Assembly (NCBI GenBank): GCA_000004985.1
Contig: GG738847.1
DNA: 64,000 bases
Source of the DNA: Naegleria gruberi
Taxonomy: Eukaryota
Reading direction: 5' to 3' (one strand)
Below are positions 9,230-62,969 of this stretch, one piece after another. A program made the position numbers and the translations under genes. Below the pieces are notes generated by a model. It had not been told where the DNA came from and did not search any database. It saw nothing but the letters and a program-made list of their open reading frames with translations. Every line of letters starts with the position of its first letter. Position 1 is the first letter of the stretch.

Positions 9230-10855
9230 ATGTTTAAAAGTCTTCTTGTACATCAACCACATTCCAAAACTAATTTATTAAAATTATGTAAATATAATTT
9301 ATCATCACCATCTTTTAAAAGTGGAGGAGGAGGAATTTTATCAATCGGAACATCTACTGGTAGTAATAATGTTCTTTCGAATTCTTCTATGAATAATGAT
9401 ATGAGACATTATTCTTCTATTACTATTGATCCGATTCCTTTTACTTATCAACCACAACCATCATCACATGGACATTTAATGAAGGAAAATGAAATTGTGC
9501 CAGGATTTACATTGAAAGATTTTGAGGAAAGATTGAATAATTTATTGAGTATTATGGATGATAATTCTCTTTTCATTTTGGGATCTAAGAAGGAATCCTA
9601 TATGAGTCCAAATGTAAAATATCCATATAGACAGGATTCAAATTTCTATTATTTATGTGGAGTGAGTGAACCAGAGTGTTATCTTGTTATTAGAAAGAAT
9701 AATGAATCCTCACAGATAAAGCATGAAATTACTCTCTATGTAAGGGAGAAGAGTAAGAGAGAATTCTTTCATGGAGTTGTTAATGGAGTGGAATCTCTTC
9801 AGAAATTATTTGGTAATTTAATTGAAGTGAAACCTGTCAAGGGTTTTTTGAGAGATTTACAAGGTCATGTTAGAAATTACAATATTATTTATCATGACCC
9901 TGATTTTGATGAAGGATTGAGTGATTTTATTGTAAAATCTGGAGGTGGAATTGAAGAATTCAGAGGAGAAAAGCAAAGGAAGAAGGTTATTTATCCAGAT
10001 TCATTGGTATCCATGTTGAGATCTAGAAAGAGTGCCTCTGAAATTGCTCATATTAAGAAATGTGCCTCTATTAGTGCTCAAGCATTTACAGAATTGATGA
10101 AAAAGATTAGACCTGGAATGTCAGAAGCTCATGTTGAAGCAATTTTAGAATTTGAATGTAGAATTAGAGGAGCTCAAAGATTGGCCTATCCTCCAGTGAT
10201 TGGTTCTGGTGACAGAGCTAACATTATTCACTATTTAACCAATAATCATTTGACTCAAGATGGTGATTTGATTAGAATTGATGCAGCAGCTGAATATTAT
10301 GGATATATGAATGATATTACTAGAACATTCCCAGTGAATGGTAAATTCACTGCTCCTCAAAGAAAGGTATATGAAGCTGTTTTAGACATTCAAAAGAAGT
10401 GCATTGAATATCTCAAGAAGCATACTACAGAAACCATCACTGTTCATTCCTATCATGACTATTCATATAGATTAATTATTGAATCACTGAGTCAACATTT
10501 TAACATTTCCAAGAGTAAGAATGAATTGTGTCAATTGGCTGACTCTGTTGTCTATCCACACATGGTTGGTCATCCAACAGGAATGTGGATTCATGAAGAT
10601 ATTCCAACAAGGGATGATAAATTGGGTCCAGGAATGATCATTACTTGTGAACCTGGTATTTACTTTTCCAATCAAGTGAAGGAGTACATTCCAAACTCTC
10701 TATTGCATGGTATTGGTGTACAAATAGAAGATGATATTCTATTAACGGAAGATGGTATAGAAGTTTTAAGTCATGAAACTCCAAAGGAAGTGGAAGAAAT
10801 TGAAGAAATTATGGCAAGAGGAAGAGCACAACATCCAATGTATTTTAGTTTTTAA
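9230..10855 (+). CDS. Xaa-Pro aminopeptidase, M24B family (XPNPEP3/AMPP-like)
   Basis: AMP_N-like N-terminal half followed by a pita-bread catalytic fold: HYLTNNH, DGDLIRIDAAAEY.GY..DITRTFPVNGKFT, HG.GVQIEDD. aaaaaaATG start. Confidence 0.85.
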   Translation: MFKSLLVHQPHSKTNLLKLCKYNLSSPSFKSGGGGILSIGTSTGSNNVLSNSSMNNDMRHYSSITIDPIPFTYQPQPSSHGHLMKENEIVPGFTLKDFEERLNNLLSIMDDNSLFILGSKKESYMSPNVKYPYRQDSNFYYLCGVSEPECYLVIRKNNESSQIKHEITLYVREKSKREFFHGVVNGVESLQKLFGNLIEVKPVKGFLRDLQGHVRNYNIIYHDPDFDEGLSDFIVKSGGGIEEFRGEKQRKKVIYPDSLVSMLRSRKSASEIAHIKKCASISAQAFTELMKKIRPGMSEAHVEAILEFECRIRGAQRLAYPPVIGSGDRANIIHYLTNNHLTQDGDLIRIDAAAEYYGYMNDITRTFPVNGKFTAPQRKVYEAVLDIQKKCIEYLKKHTTETITVHSYHDYSYRLIIESLSQHFNISKSKNELCQLADSVVYPHMVGHPTGMWIHEDIPTRDDKLGPGMIITCEPGIYFSNQVKEYIPNSLLHGIGVQIEDDILLTEDGIEVLSHETPKEVEEIEEIMARGRAQHPMYFSF

Positions 10856-40197: not shown

Positions 40198-41556
40198 TTA
40201 TTGCTTCTTATTAGCCTTCATTCTTTCCCTTAATTTATTCTTAGAATCGGATGAATTCATTTGAGCTTTTTGTTGTTCCATTCTCAATTTCTCGTAATGT
40301 TTTACTGTCCAGTCACCTCCTTCAATTGAGTAAAAGTCCATTGGATAGATTGGTCTCCATTCAGTGGCTGTTAAAGCTACCTCAGCTTCATAGGCAGTCA
40401 GTAATGGTTTATCAAAGAAGTGACCCCAATCGATTGAGAGACGAGGACAAGCAATTTGAATCCAACACTCAACATCGTGGAATAGTTGAAGTTTGCTTGG
40501 GAAAATTTCACTCAAAAGGAGAGAAACATATGGAATATTCTTTTCGTTCAGTAATCGTTCAATAGTTTCAAGAATTTTTGGAGAACCTTGTCTACCCAAA
40601 GTTCCTAGAATTACACCAAACTTTTTGGCTTTCTTTGCCTTTTCAATGGCATCTTGTCTGATGGAAAATAATTGTGGATGATCATAGTGTTCCTCTGTGA
40701 ATTTCTTTCCATATGGATCATATTTGTAATATTTCAATTCTGGATTTTGAATCATGACACTTTCCAAATGGAATCTACCATCTCCCAAATAAACCATAGT
40801 TTCAATTTGATGATTTTTAGCTAAATCTTTTGGACTTGTGCAACCCAGAACTTCACCAGGTGACAATGGTTTAACTTGAGGAATAAATACAGGAGTTGTG
40901 AAATGTTTGTCCAATTCTGCCTTGGCAGTTCTTAAACTTGAAACAAATTGAATAGTTGCAACCATAGCCATTTTGGTTTCTTTTGGAAAGTTGTTAATCA
41001 TTGATTGAACAAAATAATTAATATCAATTTGAATATCCACAAAAACGTATAGAATATTCTTAATGCAACAATCACTGACAGGAACAAGACAACTGTGAGC
41101 ATAATGCACCATGAAATCAGCACCCAAAGCTCTAGCAGTAAGATCATCTATACAGCATGCTCCGTATGTGACATCTCCCATAATTACTGTACTTGTTTCT
41201 GGACAAAATCTTTCAATAATATCACTAATCACACAACTAAACAAGAGCAATCCTTCAGGAAATTGCAAAGCAACTCTCTTTGGTTTAATTTGTTGAATTC
41301 TATGAATAGTTTTATGAATTTCAAAATTATAATTTGTTGGAAGTGTTTCCTTGATGAGTCTATTCAATTCTTCGTTTTCTAAAATTGAAGCAGGAACACT
41401 TTGTTGTAATTTAATACTAGATGAAAGATTAACTCCTGCATATGGATTTGATTGTTGTTGTTGTTCAGGAGTTTGTCCAATATTGTTGTTATTGTTATTA
41501 CTATCTTCCGATGATGAAGAAGAAACGGCAACAAGACTTGTTTCTTGATTTTCCAT
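40198..41556 (-). CDS. DPH1: diphthamide biosynthesis protein 1 (DPH1)
   Basis: [35 protein letters not shown], typical of DPH1/DPH2 radical-SAM-like family members. Length and C-terminus fit DPH1. aaaaaaaATG start. PolyN/Q N-terminus. Confidence 0.85.
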
Positions 41557-42334: not shown

Positions 42335-43294
42335 ATGCAACTGTTATCTTCAGAAGTTCTCATCACAGTTTTTGATTTTCTGCTCGATATTTCCAATAAT
42401 TGCATAAATATTTATGATTGTGAAATTAGAAAAGTAATTTTTTCACTTCAATCAGTCAACTCTCAATTCAAGCAATTTTATGATGAAAATTATTGGTGGG
42501 AAGTATTGAAAACTCATCTATTGATGAGTCACTCTGTATTGTCAATGTCCGAGAAGGAGATTGTCATGAATATGAAAGAGAAATTGAAACAAAATCCATC
42601 TTTCCAATCATTTCGAAGATGTACTTTATTATTCGAAATGATGAGACGAAAGGGATTTGGTTTAAAAATGAATGATATGAATAATGAAAATGTATTATTT
42701 AATAAGATATTAATTATTGGAATGAAGGGTGTTGGAAAAACCAAATGCATATTAAATTACGTCTATTCTAATGCTTTCCCATATAATCACGAAATTGCAA
42801 TTGAGGATAGCTATAGGAAAATGTCACATTACATTGAAAAGTTTCCAGTGATTGTAGAATTATTCGAGTTAATTGAAATCAATCCAATTAGTGATTACAA
42901 TTTGAAATACGTTAACGAGTCTAACATTGTTATTGTAATGTGTGAATTATATTCTGAAGAATCAGTTCAGTATTTGGAGAGTACTTTATTTCCAGCTATG
43001 GAGGATAAAATAGCAAACCTTCCAACTTTAATTGTAATTAATGATAAGCTCAATAAGGAAAATCATACAAAAAAACGAATTAAGAAACAAAATATCAAAT
43101 CAATTCTAGAAAAGTTTAAAATTCATAATTATTCATTCATAGATATAAGTACAAGTAATTATTCAACGATTGTAAATTTATTTTCTCATTGTACTACTAT
43201 TTTTGCTTTTACATTCCAACAAAATATTGAACTTGTAGAAGTAATTTTAAAAAAGGATAAGAAATTACTCTCCAAAAATTGTGTAATCAATTAA
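42335..43294 (+). CDS. F-box-like N-terminus fused to a Ras-superfamily GTPase-like domain with degenerate catalytic motifs
   Basis: N-terminus LLSSEVLITVFDFL (F-box-like). P-loop ILIIGMKGVGKTKCIL. No DTAGQE: the G3 position reads VELFELIE. G4 is weak (INDKLNK). Confidence 0.6.
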   Translation: MQLLSSEVLITVFDFLLDISNNCINIYDCEIRKVIFSLQSVNSQFKQFYDENYWWEVLKTHLLMSHSVLSMSEKEIVMNMKEKLKQNPSFQSFRRCTLLFEMMRRKGFGLKMNDMNNENVLFNKILIIGMKGVGKTKCILNYVYSNAFPYNHEIAIEDSYRKMSHYIEKFPVIVELFELIEINPISDYNLKYVNESNIVIVMCELYSEESVQYLESTLFPAMEDKIANLPTLIVINDKLNKENHTKKRIKKQNIKSILEKFKIHNYSFIDISTSNYSTIVNLFSHCTTIFAFTFQQNIELVEVILKKDKKLLSKNCVIN

Positions 43295-44295: not shown

Positions 44296-47200
44296 TTATT
44301 GTTGATCTTGTTGCATGGATGGTGGTTGATAGACTTCATCTTGTTGCAATAACAATTCGTCGTCTTCATCTGATTCACTTTCTTCACCATCTTCGAGAAC
44401 TTGAATTTCACTTTCTTGTTGGAAGACATAGTCACCAGGCTTCTTTCTTTCACTCTTCAATTTCTTCAACTTTCTCTTACCCTTTCTAATGTAAACTCTA
44501 GTGAGAGTCTTGATTCTTTCGACAGCTTGTGGATCTCTCATAACCAAACCAACGAATGATAATACCAAGAAAATGATAGTGATAGCAATCAAGATAATTG
44601 GTGAAATATAGTAGGCCTTATAGGAGAAACCATAATTTTCCAAAGCAGTAGCAACATTTTGATTACTTTCTTGATACTTTCTAATTTCAACAGTGTACAT
44701 TAATTCGACAGCCCATCTCACTGGAGAAGAACAAACCAAAACCAATGTATACCATTCCTTAGACATGGTACGAACTGTTGGTTGAACACCACCCAACAAG
44801 GCACACAAAATAATGTACATTACACCAACAAATTCAGCATGAGTTCTTTGAACGAAAACTGAAATGAAATAGCCAAGAGAACTGAAAACAATTTCGAATA
44901 ATAAGAAGAGTCCATAGTATGTGTAAAATTCAGCTTCAGGATTAACGAGGATATACCAGAAAGTAACAAAGACCAATGGATAGATCAACAAGGAAGGAAT
45001 TTCACCAGTCAATTTACCAAGGAAGTAACTCATCTTGTTGATACCATTCTGAGCTTCACGTCTATAGAGTTCCTTATCAGCACCAAAACATTTGAGTGAA
45101 GATTGCATAGCAGCAATGGCAAGAGCAGAAACTGTAACAATACTCATTGGTGCAATCTTATCAATTCTTGGCAATGAACATTGATTACTAATAAATGTTG
45201 GACACAACTTTTGAAGAGTTGATGAAAGAGGACCAATAAAGTCCATGTTAAAGTAGAAACCTCCAATAATTACAGCAAGAGCAAAGTGGAAGAAGAAATC
45301 AAAGAAGACACCCTTGTAGTGACGACTCAATTGAAGCAAAGCACGAAGAGAGAATAAGAGATATTGACCCAAGAACGCAATTGGCTTTCTTTGTCTTTCC
45401 TTAGCAACTTCACTGCCCAACAAAACTTGTTGTGGATCAATAACAGAAGCACCAACTTCTTCATCATCTTCTTGTTCTTGTTCTGATTGTTGAGTTTCAT
45501 TACCATTTCTTGATTTGAGCCATTTCTTTTCATTTTCTTCCTTCTTCAAGTCCCACAAGTGCAACAAACGTTCTGGTTCAAAGTTTGGATCACCAGGTCT
45601 TTCAACATTACCCAAACAAACATCAACAAAAAAGTCTGGAGGATTTTCATAGTTTGGACATTTGAAGCCAATTTCTTCAAAGAATCTCAAAGCATCCTTG
45701 GTTGGACCATTGTAAACAATGCCACCATTCTTACCCATGATAATACAATCGTCAAAGAGGAGGAATACATCATTTCTTGGTCTGAGCATGGTAGAAACAA
45801 CTGTAGTACCACTTTCAGCAGCCAACTTGAAGGCCTTACACAAGAATTTCTTTCTTTCGAGTGGAATTTCATCGAATGGATTATCGACAAATAAACAAAC
45901 TGGATCAGCAACCATTTCAAGAGCCATGTTAACAAAGACTCTGAGTTCTTCATCGAGACCGTGCTTCTTTGATTTACCAATTGTATCATACATAAAGTTT
46001 TCAATACCCAAAACCTTACATGTCTTTTCAACACGTCTACCAACTTGACTGTATGTATAATAACTTGGCAAACGAGAGTGACCAGCAAATCTCAACAATT
46101 CGTGAACCTTCAATTCCTTAGCCATATCAAGTTGCTTTGGGGCAAAGCTGATAATATTTCTGAATTCGTGCGGATCCTTAATTTGTTCATTAATCATAAT
46201 TTTACCATGAACGAAACCCAAGTGATGTCTACCAGAAAGAGTATTGAGCAATGCAGAAGTTGCTTCAGAATCAACACCAATAATACATGTAGTTCTTCCG
46301 TGATAGACACGACCAGTGACACCTTCGAAAATAACTTCTTCACTCTTCTTTCTGATATATGACAAATCCTCAAAGGCATAATCAATTGTAAAGTTCTTCT
46401 TTGAGAATGGTGGTTCATTGACGAGAGAACCAGTACTATCATAATTGAATTGTTCATTTCCTTGAATAAAGTTGGCAATATTAATACCAATGTTGGCAAG
46501 ACCATTTTGTCCTGAGATTTCTTGGTCTTGTTTAATCTTCTTTTGCTTCATCTTCTTCTTCTTGTAAGAGGCAGTGACACATCTGACAACAACGAAAGTG
46601 ACCAAAACGAGGAAGACAACAACGAACATTAACAAGATACCCAAATAGAAGGATTGTTGCTTGGCAGAACCTTCTGGACAATAGGAGAACCATTGACAAC
46701 GTTTAGGATAAGTAGAGCCAGCAGCACAGTGATAACCAGATGGACACAACAACATTGAGTTGGTATTAGGGCAATAATAACCAGCAGTACAAGCAAGTGG
46801 TTCCTTAGTACCTCTTGGGCAATAATAACCATCTTCACACAAGACTTTGCTTGACAAGGTTGGACAATAGTAACCTTCTGGACAATAGTGCTCATCACTA
46901 CCATAAGTACCAGTTGGACAGTATTGAGTTCTGTTACCAATTTGTTCCAAACATGGAGTTGGAGTCATAGAGTATGGAGTTTCACAATAGTTCAATGCAG
47001 GACAAGCATTTACGAGAGTAGTGCCTGTAGTGTCAAGTCCTTGAGTAGCTAATGGACAATATTGACCATTTCTACAAGTGTATAATTGACTTCTAGTTTT
47101 TCTTGCAAGATAACCTGGTGGTACTGGAATAGACATCAAAGGGTTCAAACAAATTTGACCATCAGGACATCTTTGCTCAGTAGAGGAACCTTCAATTCCA

Positions 47201-49403
47201 CAAGTTGTTTCAAATGTTGAGGAAGGTGAACAAGCAGTAGGTGCAGTCATGGCCGAATCTTTACATTTGAATCCAACAGGACAAGGTCTTCTACGACCTT
47301 CGTTATTGGTTGGACAGTAAAATCCTGGTTCACATTTAAAGACCATTGTTGGTCTAATTGTGTGATAACCAGCAGAAATAGAAACAGTATTGGCGTAACC
47401 TTCAGCAAGAGTTTTCCAGAATCACCATATCTTGGACAAGTCCAACCTCCATTACACATTGAGAAGTAACCAATAAAATCGAATGCAGTATACTTGGTTG
47501 GATATTTCTTACAAGCTTCAGTAAATTTAGTCAATGAAGATGGAGGATTTGAAGAAGCCAACAAGGTGCAAATATCTTGCAATCTTATTCTGGCATCAAT
47601 ATCAAAGGCCTTTCTAGAAAGGACAGCAAAGATGTGTTGTGCATTTTCAGAAACATAAATGTCATTAATTTTACCATCACTGTTCAATAATGCAGTTTGT
47701 TGCAATGTAAATAAGCTTGAACTAGAAGTGGAAGCAGAAGTGTCAGTACAAGCATACTCTTGGAAGGAAAATACTTCAATACTTTCTCTTGTGGCAATGT
47801 TGATGGTGTGATAAAATGTTGAATAGGCATCAGTGATAGCAGTGTCACTTGTTTTGTACATTCCAATAACCATCTTTGAAGGAACAGCTGATGTGGTTTT
47901 CAAATCTGATTCCTTATTAGGTCTGTTAGTACAGGTTCCACTCTTTGAGTATTGAGGTTTGGTAGTTGATGTATAAGAAGTTGAGCATGTTGTGTCAGCT
48001 GGTATACCAACGGCCTTGTATATGCCAGCTGGGTCAGAACTAATATCAGTTACATCCTGACTTGCCATTTCTGGAAGGTTAAAGACAAATAATCTTGGGC
48101 CGAAAGCATTTGCAGAGGCTGTAGTTGAAGCAACACCAACAGCAACCCAAACAGATTGGGAAGTCTTAGCAAGAGTACCATAACATTCAGTAAATGCACT
48201 CACAGAATAAATACTTTCACCAGAGACACCATGTGTATAAATGATTGAGGTCTTCTTTGTTAAGTCAACAGGTGAGTCATTTGGCGTACCAACGAGTTGA
48301 ATCAAATTGACTTGTGACTTGGATTGAATTAAAAGAAGAGGTCTACTGGCTTTAACTGAATTACAGTCAACCTTTGATGAATATGTTGGGTCAGCACCAA
48401 ATTGTCCATGAGCAAAACCGAAAATCTTTCTTTCCTCAGTTTGGTCAGCAAATGCCCATTTATAAAGTGTAGAACCCTTGTAAATGATAATACCATTGGT
48501 AGAAGTAGAAGTACCATATGAGAGAACAGCCATATGAGTTGCAGTTCCAAGAGTATCAATGTAGGCAATTGTTTGCAAATCTTGCACAAATTCGCTTGAG
48601 GACAATTTGGTTGTTGTATCAATGGTAAGAGCAATAGTTTTAGAAGATGAAACTGTGAGAGTACCAGTAGTATCCAATTTAAGAACCAATAATGTTTGAG
48701 TTGACAAGGTAACATAAATTGTTGCCTCAGTAGAGCTAGTTCTATAGACAGCCATCTTACTTGGTTTATCTGTTAAAGCAGTTTTAGCATCAAGTACTTG
48801 ATAAGAGTAGGCCAATTGTTCAGTAGTCATATCAAGAACAAGCAAATGTCTATTGGTCAATACTAGTAAATATTGTTTGGCACCATCAGCTGACATTTCC
48901 AAAGGTTTAGCAGCTCTAACAAAGAAACAACGATTGTTTTCGGATTGTGATGATTGATCAGTAGTGGTAACATTTCCTCCAGAATAGTCTTCCTTATAAA
49001 TTTTAACAATATTATCAACATCTTGATCTTTCACACAAATCATGTTATTTTCAGTTGATGTAATTGGTGTCTTGTCTGTTATTTTGGTATATAAACATTG
49101 TGCACCAGTGGCATCACAATTAAAAATGTCAGGATCTCTAAAAGTGATTGGTTGACTTGCTCTAAAGTTATTATATGTACACCATGATGGTCTTGAAGTG
49201 GATAAAGATGGATCACATAATCCAAAGGCTGATTTAACTTGTTCACCAGATAATGCAGCACACCAGTCTGGAGGTGTGGCAGCAAGAGTTGAAGCACAAC
49301 TCAAAGTAATCATCAACAAGATGGAGACGATTAAATATCGAACAGCAACACGTTGTTGTGCTTGTCCTTTCAACAATGGTCTATTATCATTACGTATCAT
49401 CAT
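44296..49403 (-). CDS. giant secreted/type I membrane protein: large extracellular domain plus Cys-rich GYYCP/EGF-like repeats plus a degenerate ABCG-type module, with an apparent 1-nt frameshift at 47412-47415
   Basis: ORF 47247..49403 has a signal peptide (..LLMITLSCASTLAATP) and a 700-aa Thr/Ser-rich ectodomain. ORF 44296..47346 continues in a different frame with CxxC/GYYCP repeats, a TM helix followed by KKKKMKQKK, an ABC NBD with degenerate Walker A (IIGVDSEATSALLNTLSGR), degenerate signature and Walker B (LFVDNPFDEIP), and a six-helix ABCG-type TMD. The two frames would fuse if the run GGAAAAC (minus strand) had one more A. Confidence 0.7.
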
Positions 49404-50152: not shown

Positions 50153-51217
50153 ATGGAAAGACTCAACCGTAAACCACACACTCTCAAACACACACCACAA
50201 CAATTGTTTACGGTTGAGTCTTTCCATTACGAGAAATTGAGAAAGGAGAAGGAAGAACAAGTAGCATTGGAGCTAAAAAAGTTGAGAAAGGAAAAAAAAG
50301 AAAAGGAAAAGCTTGCACAAGAAAATAAGGAATTGCAAAGAAAACTTGAAATGATTGAAAGAGAAAAACTTTTTAAATTGGAGCAAGAGAATGAACTTTT
50401 AAAGAAGGCAACTCAAGAAGTAAAGCAAGAAGAAAAGAAGCAAGATAAACAAGAAACGAAATTGAAAAGAAAGGTTAATGATGAGGAAGTTTCCACACCA
50501 ACAAAGAAAACTAAAACAGATCCAACCATTACAGTTGTGAATAATTATTATGCTAGTCCATCAAGTATTGAAACAAAAAAGCAATCAAGCCCAAAGACTG
50601 TAGCTACTCAAGAGGGTTGCAAACACAAACGCATTTACGATCAATTTATTTACATCTACTGTTCAATGACAGGTCAGAAACCTAAAGAGTTTATTGACAA
50701 TCCAAAACAGGTTCAAGAATTTATTACCTTTTTTGAATTGAAATTGAAACCGAAAACACTTGTAAAGAACTTCAAACCTGATCCAAATATGACAACCTCT
50801 GACTATCAGGAAATTCTCTTCTACCTTCTCAACAGCATGAAGGGTAAAGAAGGTGAAAAGAAACAAGATGAAGTCATATCTGGTATTTTAAAGGGCAAGT
50901 TGAAAAGCAAATTTAACAAAGAGCTTGTGCCATACCTCATCGCTTTTGCCTATAACAATGTAGAAGGAAAAAAGCAATTACAAGGAAAAATGGAGGATTT
51001 TTTGAATGATAAAACTAAAGTTGATTCATTCATAAAGACATACAATCTCGATTTAAATCCAGAAACAAACAAACCATACCTTAAAGCTGAAACTATTTCC
51101 AATAACAAAGCTAAGATTATGGACATTGTAAAGAATCCAAAAACTCTGAAAGATTTGTTGAATGAAGCATGCAAGGAGGTGATTCAAAGATTCTTTGGCT
51201 CTCCAAAAACTAAATAG
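50153..51217 (+). CDS. hypothetical protein with a Lys/Glu-rich coiled-coil N-terminus and a conserved-looking C-terminal domain
   Basis: 354-aa ORF. The ATG lies inside a 26-bp perfect inverted repeat (see finding), so a start further downstream is possible. Confidence 0.5.
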   Translation: MERLNRKPHTLKHTPQQLFTVESFHYEKLRKEKEEQVALELKKLRKEKKEKEKLAQENKELQRKLEMIEREKLFKLEQENELLKKATQEVKQEEKKQDKQETKLKRKVNDEEVSTPTKKTKTDPTITVVNNYYASPSSIETKKQSSPKTVATQEGCKHKRIYDQFIYIYCSMTGQKPKEFIDNPKQVQEFITFFELKLKPKTLVKNFKPDPNMTTSDYQEILFYLLNSMKGKEGEKKQDEVISGILKGKLKSKFNKELVPYLIAFAYNNVEGKKQLQGKMEDFLNDKTKVDSFIKTYNLDLNPETNKPYLKAETISNNKAKIMDIVKNPKTLKDLLNEACKEVIQRFFGSPKTK

Positions 51218-51543: not shown

Positions 51544-54500
51544 TTATTGCGTTACGTTTATTGGGCCAGATACTTCTGGTGTTACTTCCTCCTTTTCCTC
51601 AATAGGAGTGGAATGTGAAGATAAGAATCCGAGAGCTTGTAAAGATTGATTATTCACATCTTCTTGTTTCAATTTTTTCTTCGCAAACGAGCCTCTTACA
51701 GTTGGACCTTCAACACTCTTATTTGGTCCAATTCCATACAAGTTTTCCAAGTTATCATAATTTTCATGTTGATCTGCTTCAGATTCTTGACGAACTGAAT
51801 CTTCATTATGCTTGCTATTTGAAATTTTACCAACTTCAAGAGATGTGTCTGTCTTTTCATCTGCTCCTTCTTCAGAATGATGAGAATCAGTTTCATATTG
51901 TAAAGGATCAACGTGATGCTTCCTCTTGAGCAGATAAGTTTGACATAAACCTTTTCCTTTTACATCAATTTTACGTTCTTCAAATTCCATTCCCATGTCA
52001 TGAACTCTTTCATAGGTAGCTCTAGAAATTTGAATTCTGCCTGGTTCACCAGTTGACTCCATTCTTGAGGCTGTATTAATGGTATCTCCCCACAAATCGT
52101 AGGCAAACTTTTTGATACCAATCACACCAGCAACAACTGGTCCTGTATGTAGACCCACACTATGTAGTTTCAATTTAAGAAAATTTCTTAGTAATTACAT
52201 TATAAATTATATACTTACCGAATATTAACATTAGTATTCTCACTTGAATTATATTCCTTGATTACTTGAAGTGTATCAATGGCAAATCTCAATGATCTCT
52301 CAGGGTGATCTGATTGAGCATTCAAGTTGATACCACCAACACAAAAATAGGCATCTCCAATAGTTTTAATCTTTTCCAAATTATACTTTTCAGTGAGTAC
52401 ATCAAAACCATTTACAATTGCATTCAACATCAACACAAGCTCAGAAGGATTCATTCCAGAGCTGATTTTTGTAAATCCAACCATATCTGAGAAGAAAACT
52501 GTTACATCATTGAACTTTTCAGCAATGAATGTTTCACCTCCCTTCAATCTTGAAGCAACACTCTCTGGCATAATATTTAACAATAATTGTTCAGATTTTT
52601 TCTTTTCTTCAGCTAATAACATATTTTGTTTCTTTTCAGGTGTGAAATCTTTAACAAAGCAACTAATAATTGGTTTCTTATTGGCTACACTAACTGAAAG
52701 ATTAACCTTGGATGGAAATTTACTTCCATTCTTTCTGACACATTCCACTTCAAGTGTTTCACCAAATGACTGGGTTGCATTTACCATTTGCTGGATAATT
52801 TGTGCTAGTTTTTGTCTATTTGGGTCCATAGGGTCAAATAGCTTGGTCAATTGCTCGCCCAAAACATCACTATTATTCATACCATACATCTTTTGAGCAA
52901 CAGGATTGAAAAGTTCAATATCACCTTGTGAATTACATAAAATGGCTCCATCAACTGCAGAATTCAAAATTGCCCTCACCTTACCATCTCCACCACCATC
53001 TTTTTCCTTGCTTTTTTCTGATGAAGAGGCCCTAGATTTAGACGAGAGATCATTGAAAAGTACAAATTGTTTAAGAGCATCATTGGAATCAATATACTCC
53101 ACAGGTAAGTAATTGAGTAAACTTCTTAATTGTTGAATCTGATCCCAAAAATCTCTTATTAACACATATGCAAAATATGATAGTGATATTAATGCAATGT
53201 ATCCTATAACAACTGCAATTATGGATAATGTAAAACTTGGAGTCGATGCATATGTAGAATATAAATCAAAAATGTCTATTATTCTATCCATAAGGGCATT
53301 TGACATTTCACTTCCCTTAAGCAAGGTCAAGAATAAATTGTCTATAGCGTAATTACTGTAATATACATCTTCGTTCAATCTTAATGACACAGTACTAATT
53401 TCTGTAACGAGCTCATCCAAATTGGTGCAATAAAATGTGGAAACGTTGGTACAATTTGTAATTGGAGAAATAAGAATATCAATATCCTCATAAGTATTCA
53501 TAAATCTACCACCATATCTTAATACTTCCCATGAAGAAGCAATAGTTCCAAATAGTGATTTCATTTGAACGTGGTAAGTGCTAAGGTCTGATTGTGAGAG
53601 CAAACGATCATCATTCAAACTACTCTTGGAAGTATATCTCATAAAACTAAATAATTCTGTCATACGGTAGGCTGCTCTGTTTGTATTTCTGAAAATTTCA
53701 ACTCCAGAAGTAACGTATTTAATCGCTAAACTTTCAGTATTAGAAATAATTTGCATATCAACGAAAAGCATTGTAATGCAAAGAACAGTTACAATGATAC
53801 TTGACACAACAACGAGTGAAATGGTTGTCTGAGGTTTTGAAATAATTCCATTCTCTTTGATATCCATTTCTTCATCAGACTTCTTGTCGAGACCTTGAAA
53901 TATTTTACCAACTTGATCCTTGGGTAAGGTTGTGGCAATAAACTTAATAGATGATCTCAATGACCTCAAATGTACTAACAATATCATAACCACAATTGCT
54001 GCACAAACACCATATACAACAACTGCAGCTACGTAGAAGGCAATAAATTGAATGTTCATATTTTGAACAGATTCAGAATTTCTACGCAAAAATAAATCAC
54101 AATAAGCATCAAAAGCTGAGCTACCTCCATTTCTATTTGTCCATAAAAACATGAAATCACCAGATGTTATTGTAGTATTAAAGCTATTTGCTTCCTTCTT
54201 CAAATAAGTCTTGGCATATTTGATTAAACTATCAGTAATTTCTGAAATGGAAGCATTTTTGGATTGAATGTAATCGGAAGGAATTGTTGAATCATTACTG
54301 TAATAGAGAACTGGTGTAACAAGAGTATATATAGGATTGGTATAGTCTGCTATGGATTCAGAAGACATTGTACCAGAGGCCTCAGCCAATTTTAACTCAT
54401 CCAAAAGTCCCTTATACTTTTCCATTCTCTCTAATTTGTCTTGGAAAAAGTCTGTAACATTAACCACATCATGTAAACCAGAGGATATAAGTTCATTCTT

Positions 54501-56953
54501 ATAGGTTGGATAGAGTATCATAAAGTTTTGGAATACTCTAATTTCCCTCAAAAGCAATCTAGGTACAGCAGATGGCATGCAAACATAGTAGGAATTCTTA
54601 ATGTTGCTAGAGAGCTGACCAGCAAAGGAAACTGACATACCAATACCAATAGATACAATACACATTGAAAGAAAAGATAGAATCAGGAAAAAGAATAAAT
54701 AAATATTGTGTGTGTGTTGTCTGTTAAGAGAAACTCTAAACTGGTATTCCTTCTTTTGGTTGCCTACAATATTTTCAATGCCACTGAATTCATCAATTCT
54801 ATCTTCGTAGGAATGACTAATGCCACTTCTTGCTCCAGATGTTTTTTGTACATCAACGCTTGCTTGATTAGTAAATCCTTCACCAAAGTAATTACTTTCT
54901 GGCAGTACTCTATTATTTTTTCCAATCTTTTTTGGAACTGAGGTCTTTTTTGTTTCTTCTTCTTCAATATAGTTGGCTTCTTCATACATTTCATATGCTT
55001 GATCTCTTTCAAATTTGACTTCTTCTAAGAATTTTGCATATGTTCTCAATACAGTCTTATTGTTACCATAGTTTGACATGAGGCCCTTAAGAGTAATTCC
55101 AACTTCCCTTGTGATGGAAGTAATTTGTTTGTTGATACTTTCTACCTTCTCGAACGAAATATTATCATTAATAAATTCTTTAAAGAAGGACTTGTGGAGT
55201 GAGGAAATAATTTGTTGTTTCTTTTCAACTTTTTGTAAAATATGTTTAATTTCTAGCAATCCTTTGCCACTGTCAAGAATTGTCTCAATTTCTTTAGTTC
55301 TCTCTACAATAGTAAATCTTTGTAACAGAGAGGGTTGATTTTTCTTTGCCTGAATAAATTTGTTAGATAAATGAAAATACTTTAAATACGTACTTTTTCT
55401 AAAATTGCAAGTGATTTTTGTTGTCCTGTTTCAAAAAAGTTACCACAAATAATGGAGGCTGCAATTAATAAATCAACATTTTGGTAAGTTTTTTGATTGG
55501 CAACACCCTTAATAAAACATTTGGAAAGTTCCAAATCACTGAGATTACCCAAAGTAGAGGTAGATCCTTTCTTCATACACCATTTTAAGAAGAGGAATAG
55601 TCTTCTTGAGCGATTGGTTTCTTCAATTTCTTGTAAGATTTTGATAGACTCCTTTTCTAGAATGTATTTAGGATTCATAATGTCATCATTACTCAAATTG
55701 TCTAATCCACGTTCCAAGTGATTCATAAATATTCCTCTCAGATCCTTATTAATGTATCTAGTCCATAAATCCATGCACAACCAACCAATGAAGGAAAATA
55801 TTATCATTACACCAATAGTCATGCCTAACAGTCCTAAACCAAGACCATACTCATTTTGAGTATTCACATATGTGGAAACAACACCACACAAAGAACCTCC
55901 AAGAGTGGCACAAACAAAACCAAAGTAAACAGCATTCTCCCATCTTCTATAAAAAGGCATTGAAAATAAAAAGAAAATAGTGATGCAAAAGCTAGCTACC
56001 ACAAAGTAAACTGCTTGAATTACCACAAATTGATCTCCTACAACATTAATCAACAAATAGTAAATTTGATAGCTTAGAACGCTTAAAAAATAGAGATGAG
56101 CATCAAATGTTAAGAAGGGAGTTTCACTCCTTGGATTTGCATCTGTTGTTGTGTAAAAACCAACAAAGGTTGTGAAAATTGTGAGCACATATGACAAAAG
56201 ACCAATTATAATGAAAGCCAAATTGGTGCCCGAATAACAGGCCACGTCAGGAAATCTATTCAAAACTTGTTCAGCTGTTGTTGAAGAAGTGACCAGCACT
56301 GCTGACGAATAATTACAATTCAAAAACCCCAACATGAGCCAACTGATTGGCAAACTTGTTAAAGAGATTGTTACATTCAATATTCTAGTAATGACTTTGA
56401 TTTTGGGCCAATACTTGCTCATTCTGTAGATAGATCTGTAGGCAATTATTAAAATAATGACTTGAAGTAGCTGTATGGCAAATATAATACCTGCAATAAT
56501 GACCGCTGCAGTGTAAGGTAAATGTTCAAAACCAAATGTTAGAGGATAATTAACAGCTCTTGCTATCCACCTTCCATACTCGCCAAAGTTATAACTAGGT
56601 TGAATGGCAATCACTAATGTTGCCCATATGAAATATAGTCTGATGAGTAGAGTTTTGATATATTCATTTCTTCCAACTAATTCTTGTCTGGTTTGTAAAT
56701 TAAGAAGGAACATGAAGGATCTCTCCTCTAACTGAGTAACAATAGACTCATTATAGTAATCTTCCAGTGATGATGTGGTACTACCCACTTGTGAAGCATT
56801 CACAACACTACCTGCTGCATTGGCATCATTAGGTTGTCTTGTTGAAGTAATATAACTTCGCTTATCTATTGAGGCAACATTGGTAGAAAAGTTATAATCT
56901 AGCACACTTCCGGATTCACCATCTGAACCAATAATACTTCCTCTCCTACTCAT
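51544..56953 (-). CDS. membrane adenylyl/guanylyl cyclase with N-terminal polytopic domain, second TM cluster, PAS domain and one class III cyclase catalytic domain; three exons (55394..56953, 52219..55349, 51544..52159)
   Basis: Exon 1 (MSRRGSIIG.., at least 8 TM helices) ends ..ILEK|GTACGT. A 44-nt intron (55350..55393, branch ATCTAAC, ..TTCAG) continues in frame into AKKNQPSLLQRF..LLEIKHIL... Exon 2 has TM helices, PAS (..GAILCNSQGDIELFNP..) and the cyclase core (..FSDMVGFT..KIKTIGDAYFCVGG..). It ends NIR|GTAAGT, and a 59-nt intron (52160..52218, TACTAAG..CATAG) joins ..VGLHTGPVVAGVIG..DLWGDTINTASRMES. All phases checked. Confidence 0.8.
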
Positions 56954-57492: not shown

Positions 57493-58026
57493 TTATTTGT
57501 GCTCAACGTTATTACTATTTCCATTAATGTTTTCCTCATTACTGCAACAGTTGGTTTGTTCCGTTGAGGTTGTCTTAATGGTTAGAGTGGTGGTAACCTC
57601 AGGTAATTGTTCCTTTCTCCACTCTTGCATACCCCCTTTTAATTGATAGGCTGTGTATCCTTGTTGGGAAAGCCACTTTACTGCTGCAATAGATCGATGG
57701 GCACTCAAACAAATAGCATAAACAGGCTTATTCTTGTCTAATTTGGGAAGAATACTTTGATTCATACGTGATGAAAAACTGAAAACATTGGGAAGGAAGG
57801 AACAATTTATCGATCCTTCAATATGACCATTATTATATTCTGACTCGGTTCTAACATCAACAATTTGAAGGGAGTATTGACTTGTTTGATTTAATTGATC
57901 AAGTTGGTGAGCAGGTAATTCTGGAACTGATCCGAAAGTCCACCACCAAGGACCTGATGATTTTAAATTATTGGATGAATTATTGTTGTTATCAGTAGAT
58001 GATGATGTGTTGTCGTTTGAAGACAT
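57493..58026 (-). CDS. single-domain rhodanese-like protein
   Basis: ..IVDVRTESEYNNGHIEGSIN..PVYAICLSAHRSIAAVKWL..GYTAYQLKGGMQEW, with active-site Cys in the CLSAHRS loop. PolyN/S N-terminus. aaaaaATG start. Confidence 0.8.
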   Translation of the reverse strand: MSSNDNTSSSTDNNNNSSNNLKSSGPWWWTFGSVPELPAHQLDQLNQTSQYSLQIVDVRTESEYNNGHIEGSINCSFLPNVFSFSSRMNQSILPKLDKNKPVYAICLSAHRSIAAVKWLSQQGYTAYQLKGGMQEWRKEQLPEVTTTLTIKTTSTEQTNCCSNEENINGNSNNVEHK

Positions 58027-59013: not shown

Positions 59014-62000
59014 TTAAAGTTCAGAATCATCATCACCAATCTTTTTCCTCACTGTTGACTTCTTTAACGAGACACCACCACCAAGAATGTTTGTACCAGC
59101 TTTTGGATCGTCCTTCTTGGCAGTTGATGCTGTGAGACGACTTGTTGTACTTGCATTTTTGAGATCTTGTTTAAGTTTTTCCTTCTTAAGCTTTTCTTCT
59201 TCTGCCTTCTTTTTCTTTTCGTCGGCCTTTTGTTGTTGAATATTCTTGTCGGCAGCTTGTTTAAATTGTTGAACAAAGGCATCAATCATTTGGAAGAATT
59301 TGTCTGGTTCTTTCATAAGATCGTCCTTAGTTTCATTGTACAATTCTGCGAGCTCTGTTAATTGATTCTTCATAGCTTCCATATCTTCCTTGATCTTGTT
59401 AATGGTATTGTCAACCTTCTCACAGAATGGTTGCATTTTTTCAACAAATTTGTCTCCATCAAGTTGTTCTTCAATGGCTTCTCTAATTTGAGTTTGTAAA
59501 ATGTTTTGTCCTTTTTTAAGTTCTTCCAAATCATCTTCCAAAGAGGAAATGTTCACTCTGGTGGCAGCTTGAACGTGTTCTAATTCTGTATCAAAACCAG
59601 CAACTTCTGGTTCGTTGTCTTGGACAAACTTGACAATATATTGGAGGAGAGAACTCTTACCGTCACCAGTCTTAGTATCATTCAACTTGGCAAGTGATTT
59701 GAGTTTAAAACCATAACTGATCTTATTCTTTTGTTTACCATTCAAAAAGTTACCAATTGTAAGAATAATACCCAACAATCTGATGAAATTCTTAGAGTTT
59801 TGCATTTCTTTACAGGCTAATGTAAGATTTTGAATATCAGGTCTAATTTTACCACTGATATCAGGGAATTTAAATTTAAATTCCCACGCATCAAGTCTTC
59901 CTTTGAGATTTGGAATTCCATCCATGACTTTGAAGAATTTATCAGGTTCTGCTAATTCATCCATTGGTCCATCATATGTATTGACAGTATCAATTTCTTC
60001 TCTCTCAGGAGCAATTTGCTTAATTGTACCAACATTATCAGAAGTAACAACAGCTTCATCGAGAGCAATAATAGCTTTCTTCAATGATTCATAACTTGTA
60101 CCTCTCAATGAACCTAATTGAAGGGAAACAGCATAACTACGTTTTGCATCCAACATTGATTTAACTTCCTTCTTCTTTTCTGTTGGCTTAACTTCTTTGT
60201 TTGGATCTTCCTTTTTCTTTGTAGAGAAACATGATGTCAAATGATCCAAATCTATTTCCTCAATAATGGAATTTGTCTTATTTGCAATACCTTTTGTCAT
60301 AAATACGGTATTGGTAAGTGTTGTCTTATTAATTTGGTCAAAGTGAACATTTCTGGTTGCTTCTTTTGGAGCTCTATCTGGAAGAACAGGTAATCCACCA
60401 CCAACAGCAGCACCTCTTCCAAAACCTCCTGGAACCATTGGTACACCTCTTCCAAAACCTGGTGGCATAGGAACACCCATACCAGGTGGCATTGGTACAC
60501 CTCCCATTCCTGGAGGCATTGGAACACCACCACCAGGAGGAGGAGGCACACCACCCATACCAGGAGGAGGAGGCACGCCTCCCATACCAGGTGGAGGATT
60601 GGAACACCTCCCATTCCTGGAGGCATTGGAATACCTGATCCTAAAGGAGGAGGAACACCGCCCATACCAGGTGGAGGAGGAACACCAAAACCTGGAGGAG
60701 GAGGAATACCACTATCCATTCCTGGAGGCATTGGAATACCTGATCCTGGAGGTGGTGGAATACCACCAAAACCTGGAGGAGGAGGAACAAATCCCATATC
60801 ACCACCAGGTGGAGGAGGAACAAATCCTGAGCCACCAGGAGGTGGAGGAACAAATCCAGTAGATCCAGGAGGTGGAGGCACGCCAAAATCACCACCAGGA
60901 GGTGGAGGCACAAATCCTGAGCTACCAGGTGGAAGTGGTACTGAACCACCAGGTGGAGGAGGAACGAATCCTGTCGAACCAGGTGGAGGAGGAACAGATC
61001 CAGTACTAGCTACTGTGCTAGTTGGAGGTACCTTAATAGGATTACTTTTGATAGATGAAATTTCTTTTTCGATGGCCGCAATAGTCTCCTTTAGCTTGGT
61101 TTCGTTTTCTTGATGCTTTTTGAGATCTGCTTGTAACTTTTCAATCTTTGATTTTCCTTCCTTTTCAACCTTTTCGGTTTCGTCTGTCACCTCCTTAACT
61201 TGATTTTTAACATCATCGTCTTGATCGCTTGAGTCTAATTTCTTTGTCCAAGTTTCCTTTTCCTCATGGAGCTTAATTTTTGATGCCACAGATTCAGAAA
61301 GTTCCTTACTGATTGTCTCTATTTCAACCTTCAGGTCTTCAATCTTCTTCTTGTTATCTTCACATTCTTTTTGAATATTTTGTTTCTCCGATTCGAGTTT
61401 TTGAACAAGTTCATTAATAATTTGCTCATTTTGTTGTCTTTCGTACTCAATTTTGTGTAACTTTTCATTCTGTTCTTGTTTAAATTTGTATTGAGAGTCT
61501 TCTAAATCAATAATTTGACTTTGGTTCAATCTGACTTGTTCTTCCAACTTGATTTCCAAATTAGTCCAATATTCTACATTTCCTGTTTCTCTGGACTGCT
61601 TTAAACTTCTCTTAACAAGTGCTAACATATTTTTCCAAGCTTCAAGAACGGTTTCTCTGTCCAAATCTCCATCTTTCATCTTTAAAACAATGTTAAGTAA
61701 TCTTTGAAGGATGTTAAGCATACTGGTCATGGATGCTTCGTTTAACATCAAGTTCAAAAGTTTTACAATTTCAGTTGGGTCACTTAAATCTTTAAGGACA
61801 GCGTGAGCATCTCCAAGATCACTGATTTTGTCTTCGAATCTTTCAATTTCTTTACTCAGATCCATTAATGTTTCTTCATTTTCATTACCTCCATAAGAAT
61901 TGGCAAGTTCATTCTTCAATTCATCTACTAACTCAACCATACCTAAATTTCTCATTTCCTTCTTGATGAGAGATTTACTACCTTCATCAGGTGCATTTGT

Positions 62001-62969
62001 CAAAATTGCATTCACTAAAATCATGACAGCCAATTTGTAATCCAAATCTCTTGTTTCTTGAACTCTTTGAACAATATCAAAGAATCTTCTCTTTTCTCTT
62101 TTAACCAATTTATAGTGATTAAAAGCATTCATAACAAGGGAGAAACCTTGATATGACCATCCACAAAGTAATGCTAATATTCTCAGACATTGACTTGCTG
62201 TGTTAACATTGTAAGTATCAAGAATTAAAGCCAAATTTTTAACAGCTTCAGTTTCGGATAAAAATTCATCTGCACCGATATTGGTATGTACAAGTGCACG
62301 TAAAGAGCTCACACACAAAGCTTGTTTTTGCAATTCTTCTTGATCACGTTTCTTTCCCAATACATTTGTCAATGCTAAACATTCTCCCAAAGCTCTAATA
62401 CCTCTTTCCATAATAAATTGGTTGACCCAACGTGTTGGAGCTGTTCTAATAAGAACATGAATAGTTTCCAAAATTTGTAAATCATAACCTCTTTGTTCCC
62501 ATAAGGCTAACATTTCACCAACACCTTGTTCAGTTGTTTCTTGGTCATCAATATCACGTTTGTTTTGTTTATATCTTTTCAATTCTCTAAATTTTGAAAT
62601 GAGTGGCTTGTTAGCAGATTCGTACTCTCTAACTTCTTCCGAAACACCAATATCAATCAACATTTCAATAAATTGTTCATTGATATCATCAGGAGAAATA
62701 TTGGAAGGAATTTCAGAGTGATGATCTAATGTTGAATCACCAGAATGATCCGTAAATGTACTAGCTGCTGTTGTATAACTTGTTGAGTCATCACCAAGAG
62801 TTGCCGTGTTGATACTCTGTTCTACTCTCTTCTTGTATTCATCCTTCTTCTTCTTTCTGTCCTTTTTGATTTTTTTTTTCAATTGATCTTTTACAGTTTT
62901 GGCGGTTTGATTGTTTTGATTTTCAATACTGTTTGTATCCACAGAAGAACCTATTAGTTTCTTTAACAT
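59014..62969 (-). CDS. diaphanous-type formin (GBD/FH3 - coiled coil - FH1 - FH2 - basic DAD-like tail) with a frame discontinuity inside the FH1 repeats near 60590-60600
   Basis: ORF 60297..62969 has GBD/FH3 armadillo, a long coiled coil, FH1 (..GFVPPPPGG.. and GIPMPPGMGGVP..) and ends in frame-garbled sequence. ORF 59014..60585 begins MGGVPPPPGMGG.. and carries a complete FH2 (..LLGIILTIGNFLNGK..) plus a Lys-rich C-terminus. The two ORFs overlap in different frames. Confidence 0.8.
60390..61010. repeat. tandem DNA repeats encoding FH1 poly-proline units (second formin)
   Basis: Same ccaggtggaggaggaacacc...cataccagg unit family as at 2880..3560. The antisense Gly/Glu-rich track ORFs (60599..60862, 60641..60949) are artefacts. 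Confidence 0.8.

What the first reader, a model, noticed from the sequence alone, without database searches (positions are those of the whole stretch)
51544..56953. Three-exon membrane cyclase: polytopic N-domain plus PAS plus a single class III catalytic domain
The ORF track splits this into three pieces. With a 44-nt and a 59-nt intron it becomes one roughly 1,770-aa protein with about 8 TM helices, a further TM cluster, a PAS sensor and one cyclase homology domain (FSDMVGFT..GDAY..; ..HTGPVVAGVIG..GDTINTASRME). A single catalytic domain implies homodimerisation. The PAS and large membrane domain suggest a directly ligand-, light- or redox-gated cAMP/cGMP source.
Basis: partly seen in the sequence, partly recalled or inferred. 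Interest (0 to 1): 0.5.

Follow-up and report, generated by a model that had tools for sequence, protein, structure and literature searches.

The report
Naegleria membrane adenylyl cyclase gene
This is a real, intact three-exon gene of the amoeba Naegleria gruberi for a 1,768-residue, 12-helix membrane adenylyl cyclase; it is an ordinary member of a large, already catalogued but unstudied Naegleria gene family, and the only new point is that the public model of this gene is truncated and mis-spliced.

Summary
Three minus-strand ORFs (56953-55394, 55349-52219, 52159-51544) join through a 44-nt and a 59-nt GT-AG intron into one 1,768-aa protein. A paralog and relatives align across both junctions without gaps. 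One relative reads through both junction sites in a single uninterrupted ORF.

The source is Naegleria gruberi. The public model of this locus (99% identical, 1,084 aa, "partial") skips aa 521-762 and stops at a contig end before the PAS domain.

Module order:
- about 8 TM helices, no Pfam family
- cytosolic TPR_TmcB repeats
- four more TM helices framing two predicted helical ectodomains
- PAS
- transducer helix
- one class IIIa cyclase domain

All seven canonical catalytic residues are present, including the Lys/Asp pair that specifies ATP. I read it as a homodimeric adenylyl cyclase, not a guanylyl cyclase or pseudo-cyclase. The PAS domain has no His and no LOV cysteine, so FixL-type heme sensing and LOV-type light sensing are disfavoured. 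The sensed signal is unknown.

At least 26 cluster representatives share the full architecture, and every named one is from Naegleria. I rate it a new member of a known kind, of low to moderate interest.

The parts
51544..56953 (-). Whole gene from ATG to stop: 3 exons, 1,768 codons plus stop
   Evidence: Collinear with P0002, P0003 and P0004.
55394..56953 (-). Exon 1 (aa 1-520)
   Evidence: ATG 56953 is the first in-frame ATG after a stop 13 codons upstream.
55350..55393 (-). Intron 1: 44 nt, GTACGT..TCTAAC..CAG, phase 0
   Evidence: No gap in homologs at LEK|AKKN. This site lies inside an uninterrupted ORF in L001.
52219..55349 (-). Exon 2 (aa 521-1563 plus 2 nt of codon 1564)
52160..52218 (-). 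Intron 2: 59 nt, GTAAGT..TACTAAG..TAG, phase 2, splitting the Arg1564 codon
   Evidence: NVNIR|VGLHTG is identical and ungapped in P0002.
51544..52159 (-). Exon 3 (last nt of codon 1564, aa 1565-1768, stop)
55769..56671 (-). N-terminal polytopic domain of about 8 TM helices (aa 95-395); no Pfam family
   Evidence: Hydropathy. AlphaFold helices, low confidence. No Pfam hit at E<=10. Shared with TmcB-like proteins.
54948..55256 (-). TPR_TmcB repeats (PF25474, aa 552-654) within a cytosolic helical region (aa 396-737)
53181..54698 (-). Middle membrane module (aa 738-1243): TM9, ectodomain 1 (757-959), TM10, a 53-aa cytosolic loop, TM11, ectodomain 2 (1051-1224), TM12
52641..52982 (-). PAS domain (aa 1310-1423)
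   Evidence: PAS_9 E 2.8e-15; PAS E 4.4e-9. (nearest solved are FixL/DosP, but no His).
52524..52625 (-). Coiled-coil / cyclase transducer element (aa 1429-1462, EEKKKSEQLLLNIMPESVASRLKGGE...)
   Evidence: Aligns to the helix preceding AC9 C2 and ANP-receptor cyclase domains. Sub-threshold HNOBA C-terminal hit at 1429-1455.
51925..52523 (-). Class III cyclase homology domain (aa 1463-1642, spans intron 2). Key residues: D1475, K1515, D1519, R1564, D1585, N1592, R1596
51547..51924 (-). Low-complexity, poorly conserved C-terminal tail (aa 1643-1768)

Best explanation
This is an intact Naegleria gruberi gene for a receptor-type, single-domain class IIIa adenylyl cyclase. It belongs to a Naegleria-expanded paralog family.

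Module order: about 8 TM helices (TmcB-like), cytosolic TPR_TmcB repeats, two TM hairpins carrying two helical ectodomains, PAS, transducer helix, cyclase domain.

Shown:
- The gene structure.
- The domain content.
- All canonical catalytic residues in one domain.
- The Lys/Asp substrate pair.

Inferred:
- Two chains dimerise head-to-tail through the transducer coiled coil and the cyclase domains.
- The dimer forms two symmetric active sites that convert ATP to cAMP with two metal ions.
- Activity is set by a conformational signal that starts in the membrane/ectodomain part, or at the cytosolic PAS domain.
- That signal runs through the juxtamembrane helix (conserved W-x-Q-x2-L-R-x2-x-N-Y-x-P), the PAS domain and the transducer helix into the catalytic dimer.

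The signal sensed is unknown.
For: Gene model:
- Searches give GT-AG introns, preserved frame and a single stop.
- Searches give gap-free collinearity with P0002, P0003 and P0004.
- Searches show an intron-free relative ORF spanning both junction sites. That relative has its own 43-nt GTAAGT..CTAAC..CAG intron elsewhere, so introns this short occur in the family.

Organism: where P0001 is 99% identical and annotated N. gruberi.

Domains.

Class IIIa and catalytic residues:
- The best solved relatives are AC9, AC5, AC8, mycobacterial Cya, ANP receptors and RhGC.
- The alignments place D1475, D1519 and R1564 on AC9 C1 residues, and K1515, D1585, N1592 and R1596 on AC9 C2 residues.
- locates all seven residues. 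Among 30 family cyclase domains, Lys is in 28 and Asp in 29.
- Lys/Asp specifies ATP and Glu/Cys specifies GTP (PMC7384201).
- The spacings of 40, 4, 66, 7 and 4 residues match those I recall for Rv1625c (own knowledge).

Topology:
- The cyclase domain must be cytosolic.
- That places aa 757-959 and 1051-1224 outside the cell.
- Each of these loops has exactly two Cys, all invariant, plus an invariant N-C-T sequon.

Ectodomain fold.

Family. There are 308 representatives of the N-module, 26 carry all five modules, and all named ones are from N. gruberi, N. fowleri or N. lovaniensis. Naegleria is known to carry a large cyclase repertoire, at least 81 (PMC9928731).
Against: - There is no transcript evidence for either junction.
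- There is no biochemical evidence for activity, substrate or dimerisation.
- The N-terminal model is of low confidence (pLDDT 61) and matches no solved membrane fold.
- No profile match backs that resemblance.
- The public model of this locus has a 19-aa N-terminal extension from an upstream exon that I could not find in the window, so the true start may differ.
Confidence: 0.8

Rival explanations
1. It is a guanylyl cyclase or a dual-specificity cyclase rather than an adenylyl cyclase.
For: Solved guanylyl cyclases (ANP receptor, RhGC, soluble GC) are among the strong hits. The transducer helix is very like that of receptor guanylyl cyclases.
Against: The specificity positions are Lys1515 and Asp1585, not Glu and Cys/Ser. 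This is the ATP rule described in PMC7384201. 28-29 of 30 family members keep the Lys/Asp pair.
Confidence: 0.06
2. It is a pseudo-cyclase, or a decaying gene copy, with only a scaffolding role.
For: Naegleria has very many cyclase paralogs, so some are likely degenerate. A few family members do carry substitutions at catalytic positions.
Against: This copy has all seven canonical residues. Its 5.3-kb reading frame is uninterrupted apart from two clean introns. It shows only two amino-acid differences from the public strain over the shared part.
Confidence: 0.03
3. The three ORFs are not one gene. The N-terminal membrane protein and the PAS-cyclase protein are separate products.
For: A stop codon follows each donor site, and the ORF track shows three pieces.
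Against: Full-length homologs of 1,586-1,808 aa carry all modules in the same order. L001 encodes the equivalents of exon 1, exon 2 and the start of exon 3 in one ORF. ORF 2 has no ATG near its start; the listed TTG codes for an internal Leu of the protein. The 242 aa skipped by the public model are an intact in-frame stretch holding the TPR_TmcB hit.
Confidence: 0.03
4. The PAS domain is a cofactor-bearing sensor (heme for O2/redox, or flavin for light) that directly gates the cyclase.
For: The closest solved PAS domains are the heme PAS domains of FixL and DosP, at E about 1e-7. Naegleria does have photoactivated cyclases of another type (PMC9928731).
Against: The proximal His of FixL aligns to Leu, and the whole PAS domain has no His (sequence). 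There is no LOV motif: the Cys position of GxNCRFLQ is Leu in GEQLTKLF. There is no BLUF or LOV profile hit.
Confidence: 0.07

Closest known systems
Naegleria paralogs and orthologs with the same architecture, e.g. N. gruberi P0002 (1,749 aa), XP_002672713.1 (1,736 aa), N. lovaniensis XP_044555706.1 and N. fowleri XP_044567394.1, annotated as 'Adenylate and Guanylate cyclase catalytic domain containing protein'
   Same: Same five modules in the same order. 33-52% identity over the full length. PAS and cyclase domains are nearly identical to P0002.
   Different: A distinct paralog. The ectodomains and tails have diverged. The public model of this very locus (P0001) is partial and mis-spliced.
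Mycobacterial Rv1625c/Cya-type membrane adenylyl cyclases (class IIIa, single catalytic domain, homodimer; PDB 5o5k, 4p2f, 7yz9)
   Same: One cyclase domain with all catalytic residues. Lys/Asp pair. Transducer helix before the domain. Strong sequence match, E about 1e-51.
   Different: Those have a 6-TM anchor and no PAS, TPR or ectodomains. This protein has 8+4 TM helices and about 1,450 residues of upstream modules.
Mammalian 12-TM adenylyl cyclases (AC9, AC5, AC8)
   Same: Best-scoring solved relatives of the catalytic domain (E 1e-63 to 1e-69). Also 12 TM helices in total.
   Different: Mammalian enzymes are pseudo-heterodimers of two different domains (C1, C2) in one chain with 6+6 TM helices. 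This protein has a single domain combining C1 and C2 residues, and an 8+4 TM layout.
Dictyostelid TmcB/TmcC 'tiny macrocysts' membrane proteins (Pfam PF25474 TPR_TmcB)
   Same: TPR_TmcB repeats above the Pfam cut-off. The polytopic N-domain plus TPR profile also hits dictyostelid, volvocine-alga and Cyanophora proteins. Dictyostelium tmcB is said to regulate the cAMP pathway in sexual development (PMC12750705).
   Different: The dictyostelid proteins examined show no PAS or cyclase match. No molecular mechanism is known for TmcB.
Bacterial helical-bundle sensor domains (NIT domain of NasR, 4HB chemoreceptor ligand-binding domains, TorS, NarX/NarQ)
   Different: 5-9% identity. No profile match. 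Designed helical bundles score equally well. The model is built from four sequences.

Membership tests
Class III nucleotidyl cyclase (PF00211) | Cyclase homology domain profile match above the curated cut-off | tested here: met
   192 bits against a cut-off of 21.9, profile positions 3-182 of 183.
Class III nucleotidyl cyclase (PF00211) | Two metal-binding Asp, phosphate-binding Arg, transition-state Asn and Arg | tested here: met
   D1475, D1519, R1564, N1592 and R1596 align to the AC9 C1/C2 residues.
Adenylyl (versus guanylyl) cyclase | Lys and Asp/Thr at the two base-specifying positions (Glu and Cys/Ser in guanylyl cyclases) | tested here: met
   K1515 and D1585. The rule is as stated in PMC7384201.
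Adenylyl (versus guanylyl) cyclase | Measured conversion of ATP to cAMP | not testable with these tools
   Needs an enzyme assay.
Class IIIa subclass | Closest relatives are class IIIa enzymes, with a transducer helix directly upstream of the domain | tested here: met
   Top hits are AC9/5/8, Cya, ANP receptor and RhGC. The alignment starts about 27 residues before the domain. Sub-threshold HNOBA C-terminal hit.
Homodimeric single-domain cyclase | One catalytic domain per chain carrying both C1-type and C2-type residues | tested here: met
   One Guanylate_cyc stretch. Residues of both kinds are present. Dimerisation itself was not testable.
Mammalian-type pseudo-heterodimeric 12-TM adenylyl cyclase | Two different catalytic domains (C1, C2), each following a 6-TM block | tested here: not met
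   Single domain; 8+4 TM layout.
PAS domain | PAS profile match above cut-off | tested here: met
   PAS_9 56.9 bits (cut-off 27); PAS 36.8 bits (cut-off 22.6).
Heme PAS sensors (FixL/DosP type) | Proximal His ligand on the F-alpha helix | tested here: not met
   It aligns to Leu, and there is no His in aa 1305-1430.
LOV / BLUF photoreceptor cyclases | LOV GxNCRFLQ cysteine, or a BLUF domain | tested here: not met
   No BLUF hit. The sequence reads GEQLTKLF at the LOV motif position.
TmcB/TmcC family | TPR_TmcB (PF25474) match above cut-off | tested here: met
   55.5 bits against 27.
TmcB/TmcC family | Polytopic N-domain shared with dictyostelid members | tested here: met
   The profile of aa 75-690 hits Heterostelium P0135 at E 5.8e-11 over profile positions 157-587, and D. 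firmibasis P0115.
Bacterial 4-helix-bundle / NIT sensor domains | Sequence-profile membership, or a ligand-binding signature | tested here: inconclusive
   Fold resemblance only. No Pfam match at E<=10.

The most novel reading that the evidence does not exclude
The TmcB-like 8-TM/TPR module, together with the two helical ectodomains, could be the sensing part of a distinct eukaryotic class of receptor cyclases. The Naegleria fusion would then act as a 'Rosetta stone': it would explain why cyclase-less Dictyostelium TmcB affects cAMP signalling, namely that TmcB-type proteins are membrane sensors feeding cyclic-nucleotide pathways.
Probability: 0.2. Interest if true: 0.5.

Novelty: new member of a known kind. 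Interest (0 to 1): 0.25.

Why it matters
The practical value is a corrected, full-length model. The public N. gruberi entry for this gene lacks the TPR region, one TM helix, the PAS domain and the whole catalytic domain, so this locus would be left out of a cyclase count made from that entry.

Biologically it adds one intact, probably active member to the very large Naegleria cyclase repertoire. It also documents a recurrent architecture that nobody has studied: TmcB-like membrane domain, two ectodomains, PAS, adenylyl cyclase. If that family were characterised, it could show how a free-living or pathogenic amoeba couples outside signals to cAMP. It might also give a molecular handle on the Dictyostelium TmcB phenotype.

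Tried and rejected
- A profile search of the N-terminal alignment with the word-indexed database returned only P0001. I replaced it with the exhaustive HMMER search.
- Exact look-ups of P0001 and P0002 genomic loci found nothing. I therefore could not compare intron positions in the paralog or confirm the contig end.
- The AlphaFold-database fold library was unavailable.
- Pfam at E<=10 finds nothing for the 8-TM domain or the middle module.
- I tested for an internal duplication between the two TM-ectodomain-TM halves. BLASTP found no significant similarity.
- I tested whether donor/branch/acceptor motifs are enriched in the window. They are not: 1 found against 1.5 expected.
- I looked for the public model's upstream mini-exon peptide in the window and did not find it.
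- The Naegleria genome paper (Cell 2010) is not held. I took the repertoire size from PMC9928731 instead.
- No tandem paralog of the gene exists in the window (tblastn).
Full report
**Observation.** The window is AT-rich, about 33% G+C. It carries three adjacent minus-strand ORFs at 55382..56953, 52215..55259 and 51544..52173.

I read the two gaps on the minus strand and joined the pieces.
- Intron 1 is 55393..55350. It is 44 nt, reads GTACGT...TCTAAC...CAG, and lies between codons 520 and 521.
- Intron 2 is 52218..52160. It is 59 nt, reads GTAAGT...TACTAAG...TAG, and splits the codon of Arg1564 as CG|T.
- The spliced CDS is 5,307 nt with one terminal stop, giving 1,768 aa.
- Unspliced, the frame ends three codons after the first donor and at once after the second.
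- No other GT/AG pair both removes the stop and keeps the frame at junction 1.

A strict donor/branch/acceptor pattern is not enriched in the window: one match against 1.5 expected. The splice motifs therefore prove nothing by themselves.

**Evidence for the join.** The whole protein finds a 99%-identical N. gruberi entry, P0001. It also finds:
- a 52%-identical N. gruberi paralog, P0002 (1,749 aa, 98% coverage);
- a 48%-identical metagenome protein, P0003;
- a 33%-identical N. lovaniensis protein, P0004.

In the five-way alignment the three full-length relatives run through both junctions without a gap. At junction 1, LEK|AKKNQP aligns with LEKATKNLP, LEKASKNQP and LQRAMKQHP. At junction 2, NVNIR|VGLHTGPVVAGVIG is identical in P0002.

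The DNA of P0003 (locus L001) gives the strongest support available without RNA.
- Its gene is one uninterrupted 1,586-codon ORF that covers the equivalents of exon 1, exon 2 and the first residues of exon 3.
- It is then interrupted, at a different site (after FAYD), by a 43-nt GTAAGT...CTAAC...CAG intron. After that intron the frame resumes with LWGDTINTASRME.
- So the two window junctions are contiguous coding sequence in a relative.
- Introns of about 43-44 nt with these signals do occur in this gene family.

**What the public record has.** P0001 ("predicted protein, partial", 1,084 aa) uses the same first donor. It then skips aa 521-762, which hold the TPR_TmcB region and one TM helix. 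It ends at ...GGGDGK, just before the PAS domain. It differs from the window at two residues, so the window comes from another strain, haplotype or assembly. Its 19-aa N-terminal extension is not found as a peptide in the window. ATG 56953 is the first in-frame ATG after a stop 13 codons upstream. A 5' mini-exon cannot be excluded.

**Anatomy.** Pfam gives these hits:

| Family | Residues | E-value |
|---|---|---|
| Guanylate_cyc | 1463-1642 | 8e-57 |
| PAS_9 / PAS | 1310-1423 | 3e-15 / 4e-9 |
| TPR_TmcB (PF25474) | 552-654 | 7e-15 |
| HNOBA C-terminus (sub-threshold) | 1429-1455 | 0.038 |

The HNOBA hit is the helix before the cyclase domain.

Hydropathy and the helices of a low-confidence AlphaFold model give about eight TM helices at aa 95-395. 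Four more lie at 738-756, 960-978, 1032-1050 and 1225-1243.

The cyclase domain must face the cytosol. It follows that:
- the TPR region and the 53-aa loop 979-1031 are cytosolic;
- aa 757-959 and 1051-1224 face outside.

Each outside loop contains exactly two cysteines: C777/C937 and C1153/C1161. All four are invariant across the aligned homologs, and there is an invariant N1152-C-T sequon. That fits an extracytoplasmic location.

The 8-TM domain has no Pfam family and no solved structural match. Only its TPR part matches TPR proteins.

**Catalytic domain.** The best solved relatives are class IIIa enzymes:
- AC9, AC5 and AC8, at E 1e-63 to 1e-69;
- mycobacterial Cya/Rv1625c-type enzymes, at about 1e-51;
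- ANP receptors, RhGC and soluble guanylyl cyclase.

The printed alignments with the two AC9 domains show that this single domain combines two sets of residues. The C1 set is the metal Asp in FFSD1475MVGFT, the metal Asp in IGD1519AY, and the Arg in NIR1564VG. The C2 set is the Lys in KIK1515TIG, the Asp in AYD1585LWG, and N1592 and R1596 in NTASRM.

One search confirms the positions. It also shows that the family keeps them: Lys in 28 of 30 members and Asp in 29 of 30. Lys/Asp specifies ATP, and Glu/Cys(Ser) specifies GTP (PMC7384201). The enzyme is therefore predicted to be a homodimeric adenylyl cyclase with two equivalent active sites. It is neither a guanylyl cyclase nor a pseudo-cyclase.

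The helix EEKKKSEQLLLNIMPESVASRLK aligns with the helix preceding AC9 C2. It corresponds to the cyclase transducer element / handle helix discussed in PMC7384201.

**PAS domain.** The nearest solved structures are the heme PAS domains of FixL and DosP, at E about 1e-7. However, the proximal His aligns with Leu, and the PAS domain has no His at all. The LOV motif position reads GEQLTKLF, so it lacks the cysteine, and there is no BLUF hit. FixL-type heme sensing and LOV- or BLUF-type light sensing are thus disfavoured. The PAS may bind another small molecule, or it may simply relay a signal from the membrane part.

**Family context.** An exhaustive profile search with aa 75-690 found 308 cluster representatives at E<=1e-3, of which 73 are at E<=1e-30.
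- Scanning those hits module by module shows 26 with all five modules. Roughly 40 have PAS plus cyclase behind part of the N-module.
- All named examples are N. gruberi, N. fowleri or N. lovaniensis proteins. They are annotated only as predicted or uncharacterised cyclase-domain proteins.
- More distant hits to the N-module come from volvocine green algae (with PAS), Cyanophora and dictyostelids ("TmcB/TmcC TPR repeats domain-containing protein"). The dictyostelid proteins examined show no cyclase match.
- Naegleria is known to hold at least 81 cyclases (PMC9928731).
- Dictyostelium tmcB is reported to regulate the cAMP pathway during sexual development (PMC12750705). This makes the Naegleria fusion a suggestive, but untested, functional link.

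**Mechanism proposed.**

Shown:
- an intact gene;
- the domain order;
- a complete catalytic residue set;
- the ATP-type specificity pair.

Inferred:
- homodimerisation through the transducer coiled coil and the cyclase domains;
- two-metal catalysis of ATP to cAMP;
- regulation by a conformational signal from the ectodomain/TM module, or from the PAS domain, passed through the conserved juxtamembrane helix, the PAS domain and the transducer helix.

The stimulus is unknown.

**Rivals.**

| Rival | Weight | Main reason for the low weight |
|---|---|---|
| Guanylyl cyclase | 0.06 | Lys/Asp pair |
| Pseudo-cyclase or decaying copy | 0.03 | Residue set and frame intact |
| Separate genes | 0.03 | Collinear homologs, single ORF in L001 |
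| Heme- or light-gated PAS | 0.07 | No His, no LOV Cys, no BLUF |

**Verdict.** The sensing modes it offered are either unsupported or disfavoured, and cAMP is the likely product. The gene is an ordinary member of an already catalogued, experimentally unstudied Naegleria family. The new element is a corrected full-length model for a locus that is truncated and mis-spliced in the public record. Novelty: new member of a known kind. Interest: 0.25.

Noticed in passing
window 59014-62969 (-): Two overlapping ORFs together encode one formin. The 890-aa ORF carries Drf_GBD plus FH3, and the 523-aa ORF carries FH2 (E 2e-80). They overlap at 60297-60585, so an intron or frameshift must join them.
   Followed up: no
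window 57493-58026 (-): A small single-domain rhodanese gene (177 aa, PF00581, E 5e-17) lies directly upstream of the cyclase gene on the same strand.
   Followed up: no
window 44296-49403 (-): An ABC-2/ABCG-type transporter is split into two ORFs (718 aa and 1,016 aa) that overlap at 47247-47346. This is probably another short-intron gene. Only the downstream ORF gave Pfam hits.
   Followed up: no
window 55394 to about 54625 (-), compared with public protein P0001: The public N. gruberi model of this locus treats aa 521-762 as an intron. That stretch is an intact in-frame region holding the TPR_TmcB domain and one TM helix. The model ends at a contig end before the PAS domain. It differs from the window at two residues (D/N and S/G), so the window is from another strain, haplotype or assembly.
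   Followed up: yes
L001 5072-10268 (ENA ERZ27315067, contig k141_1905646): A metagenome contig from an unnamed Naegleria-like organism carries a 48%-identical homolog. It has no intron at either window position, but has a 43-nt GTAAGT..CTAAC..CAG intron at 9819-9861, after FAYD. Intron positions therefore differ within the family.
   Followed up: partly
[not shown]
   Followed up: partly
window 50153-51217 (+): A 354-aa Lys/Glu-rich ORF lies downstream of the cyclase gene on the opposite strand, so the two genes converge. It has no Pfam family.
   Followed up: no
window 40198-41556 (-) and 42335-43294 (+): A diphthamide-synthesis gene (PF01866, E 2e-111) and a Ras-family GTPase with a roughly 120-aa N-terminal extension. 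These are ordinary housekeeping and signalling neighbours.
   Followed up: no
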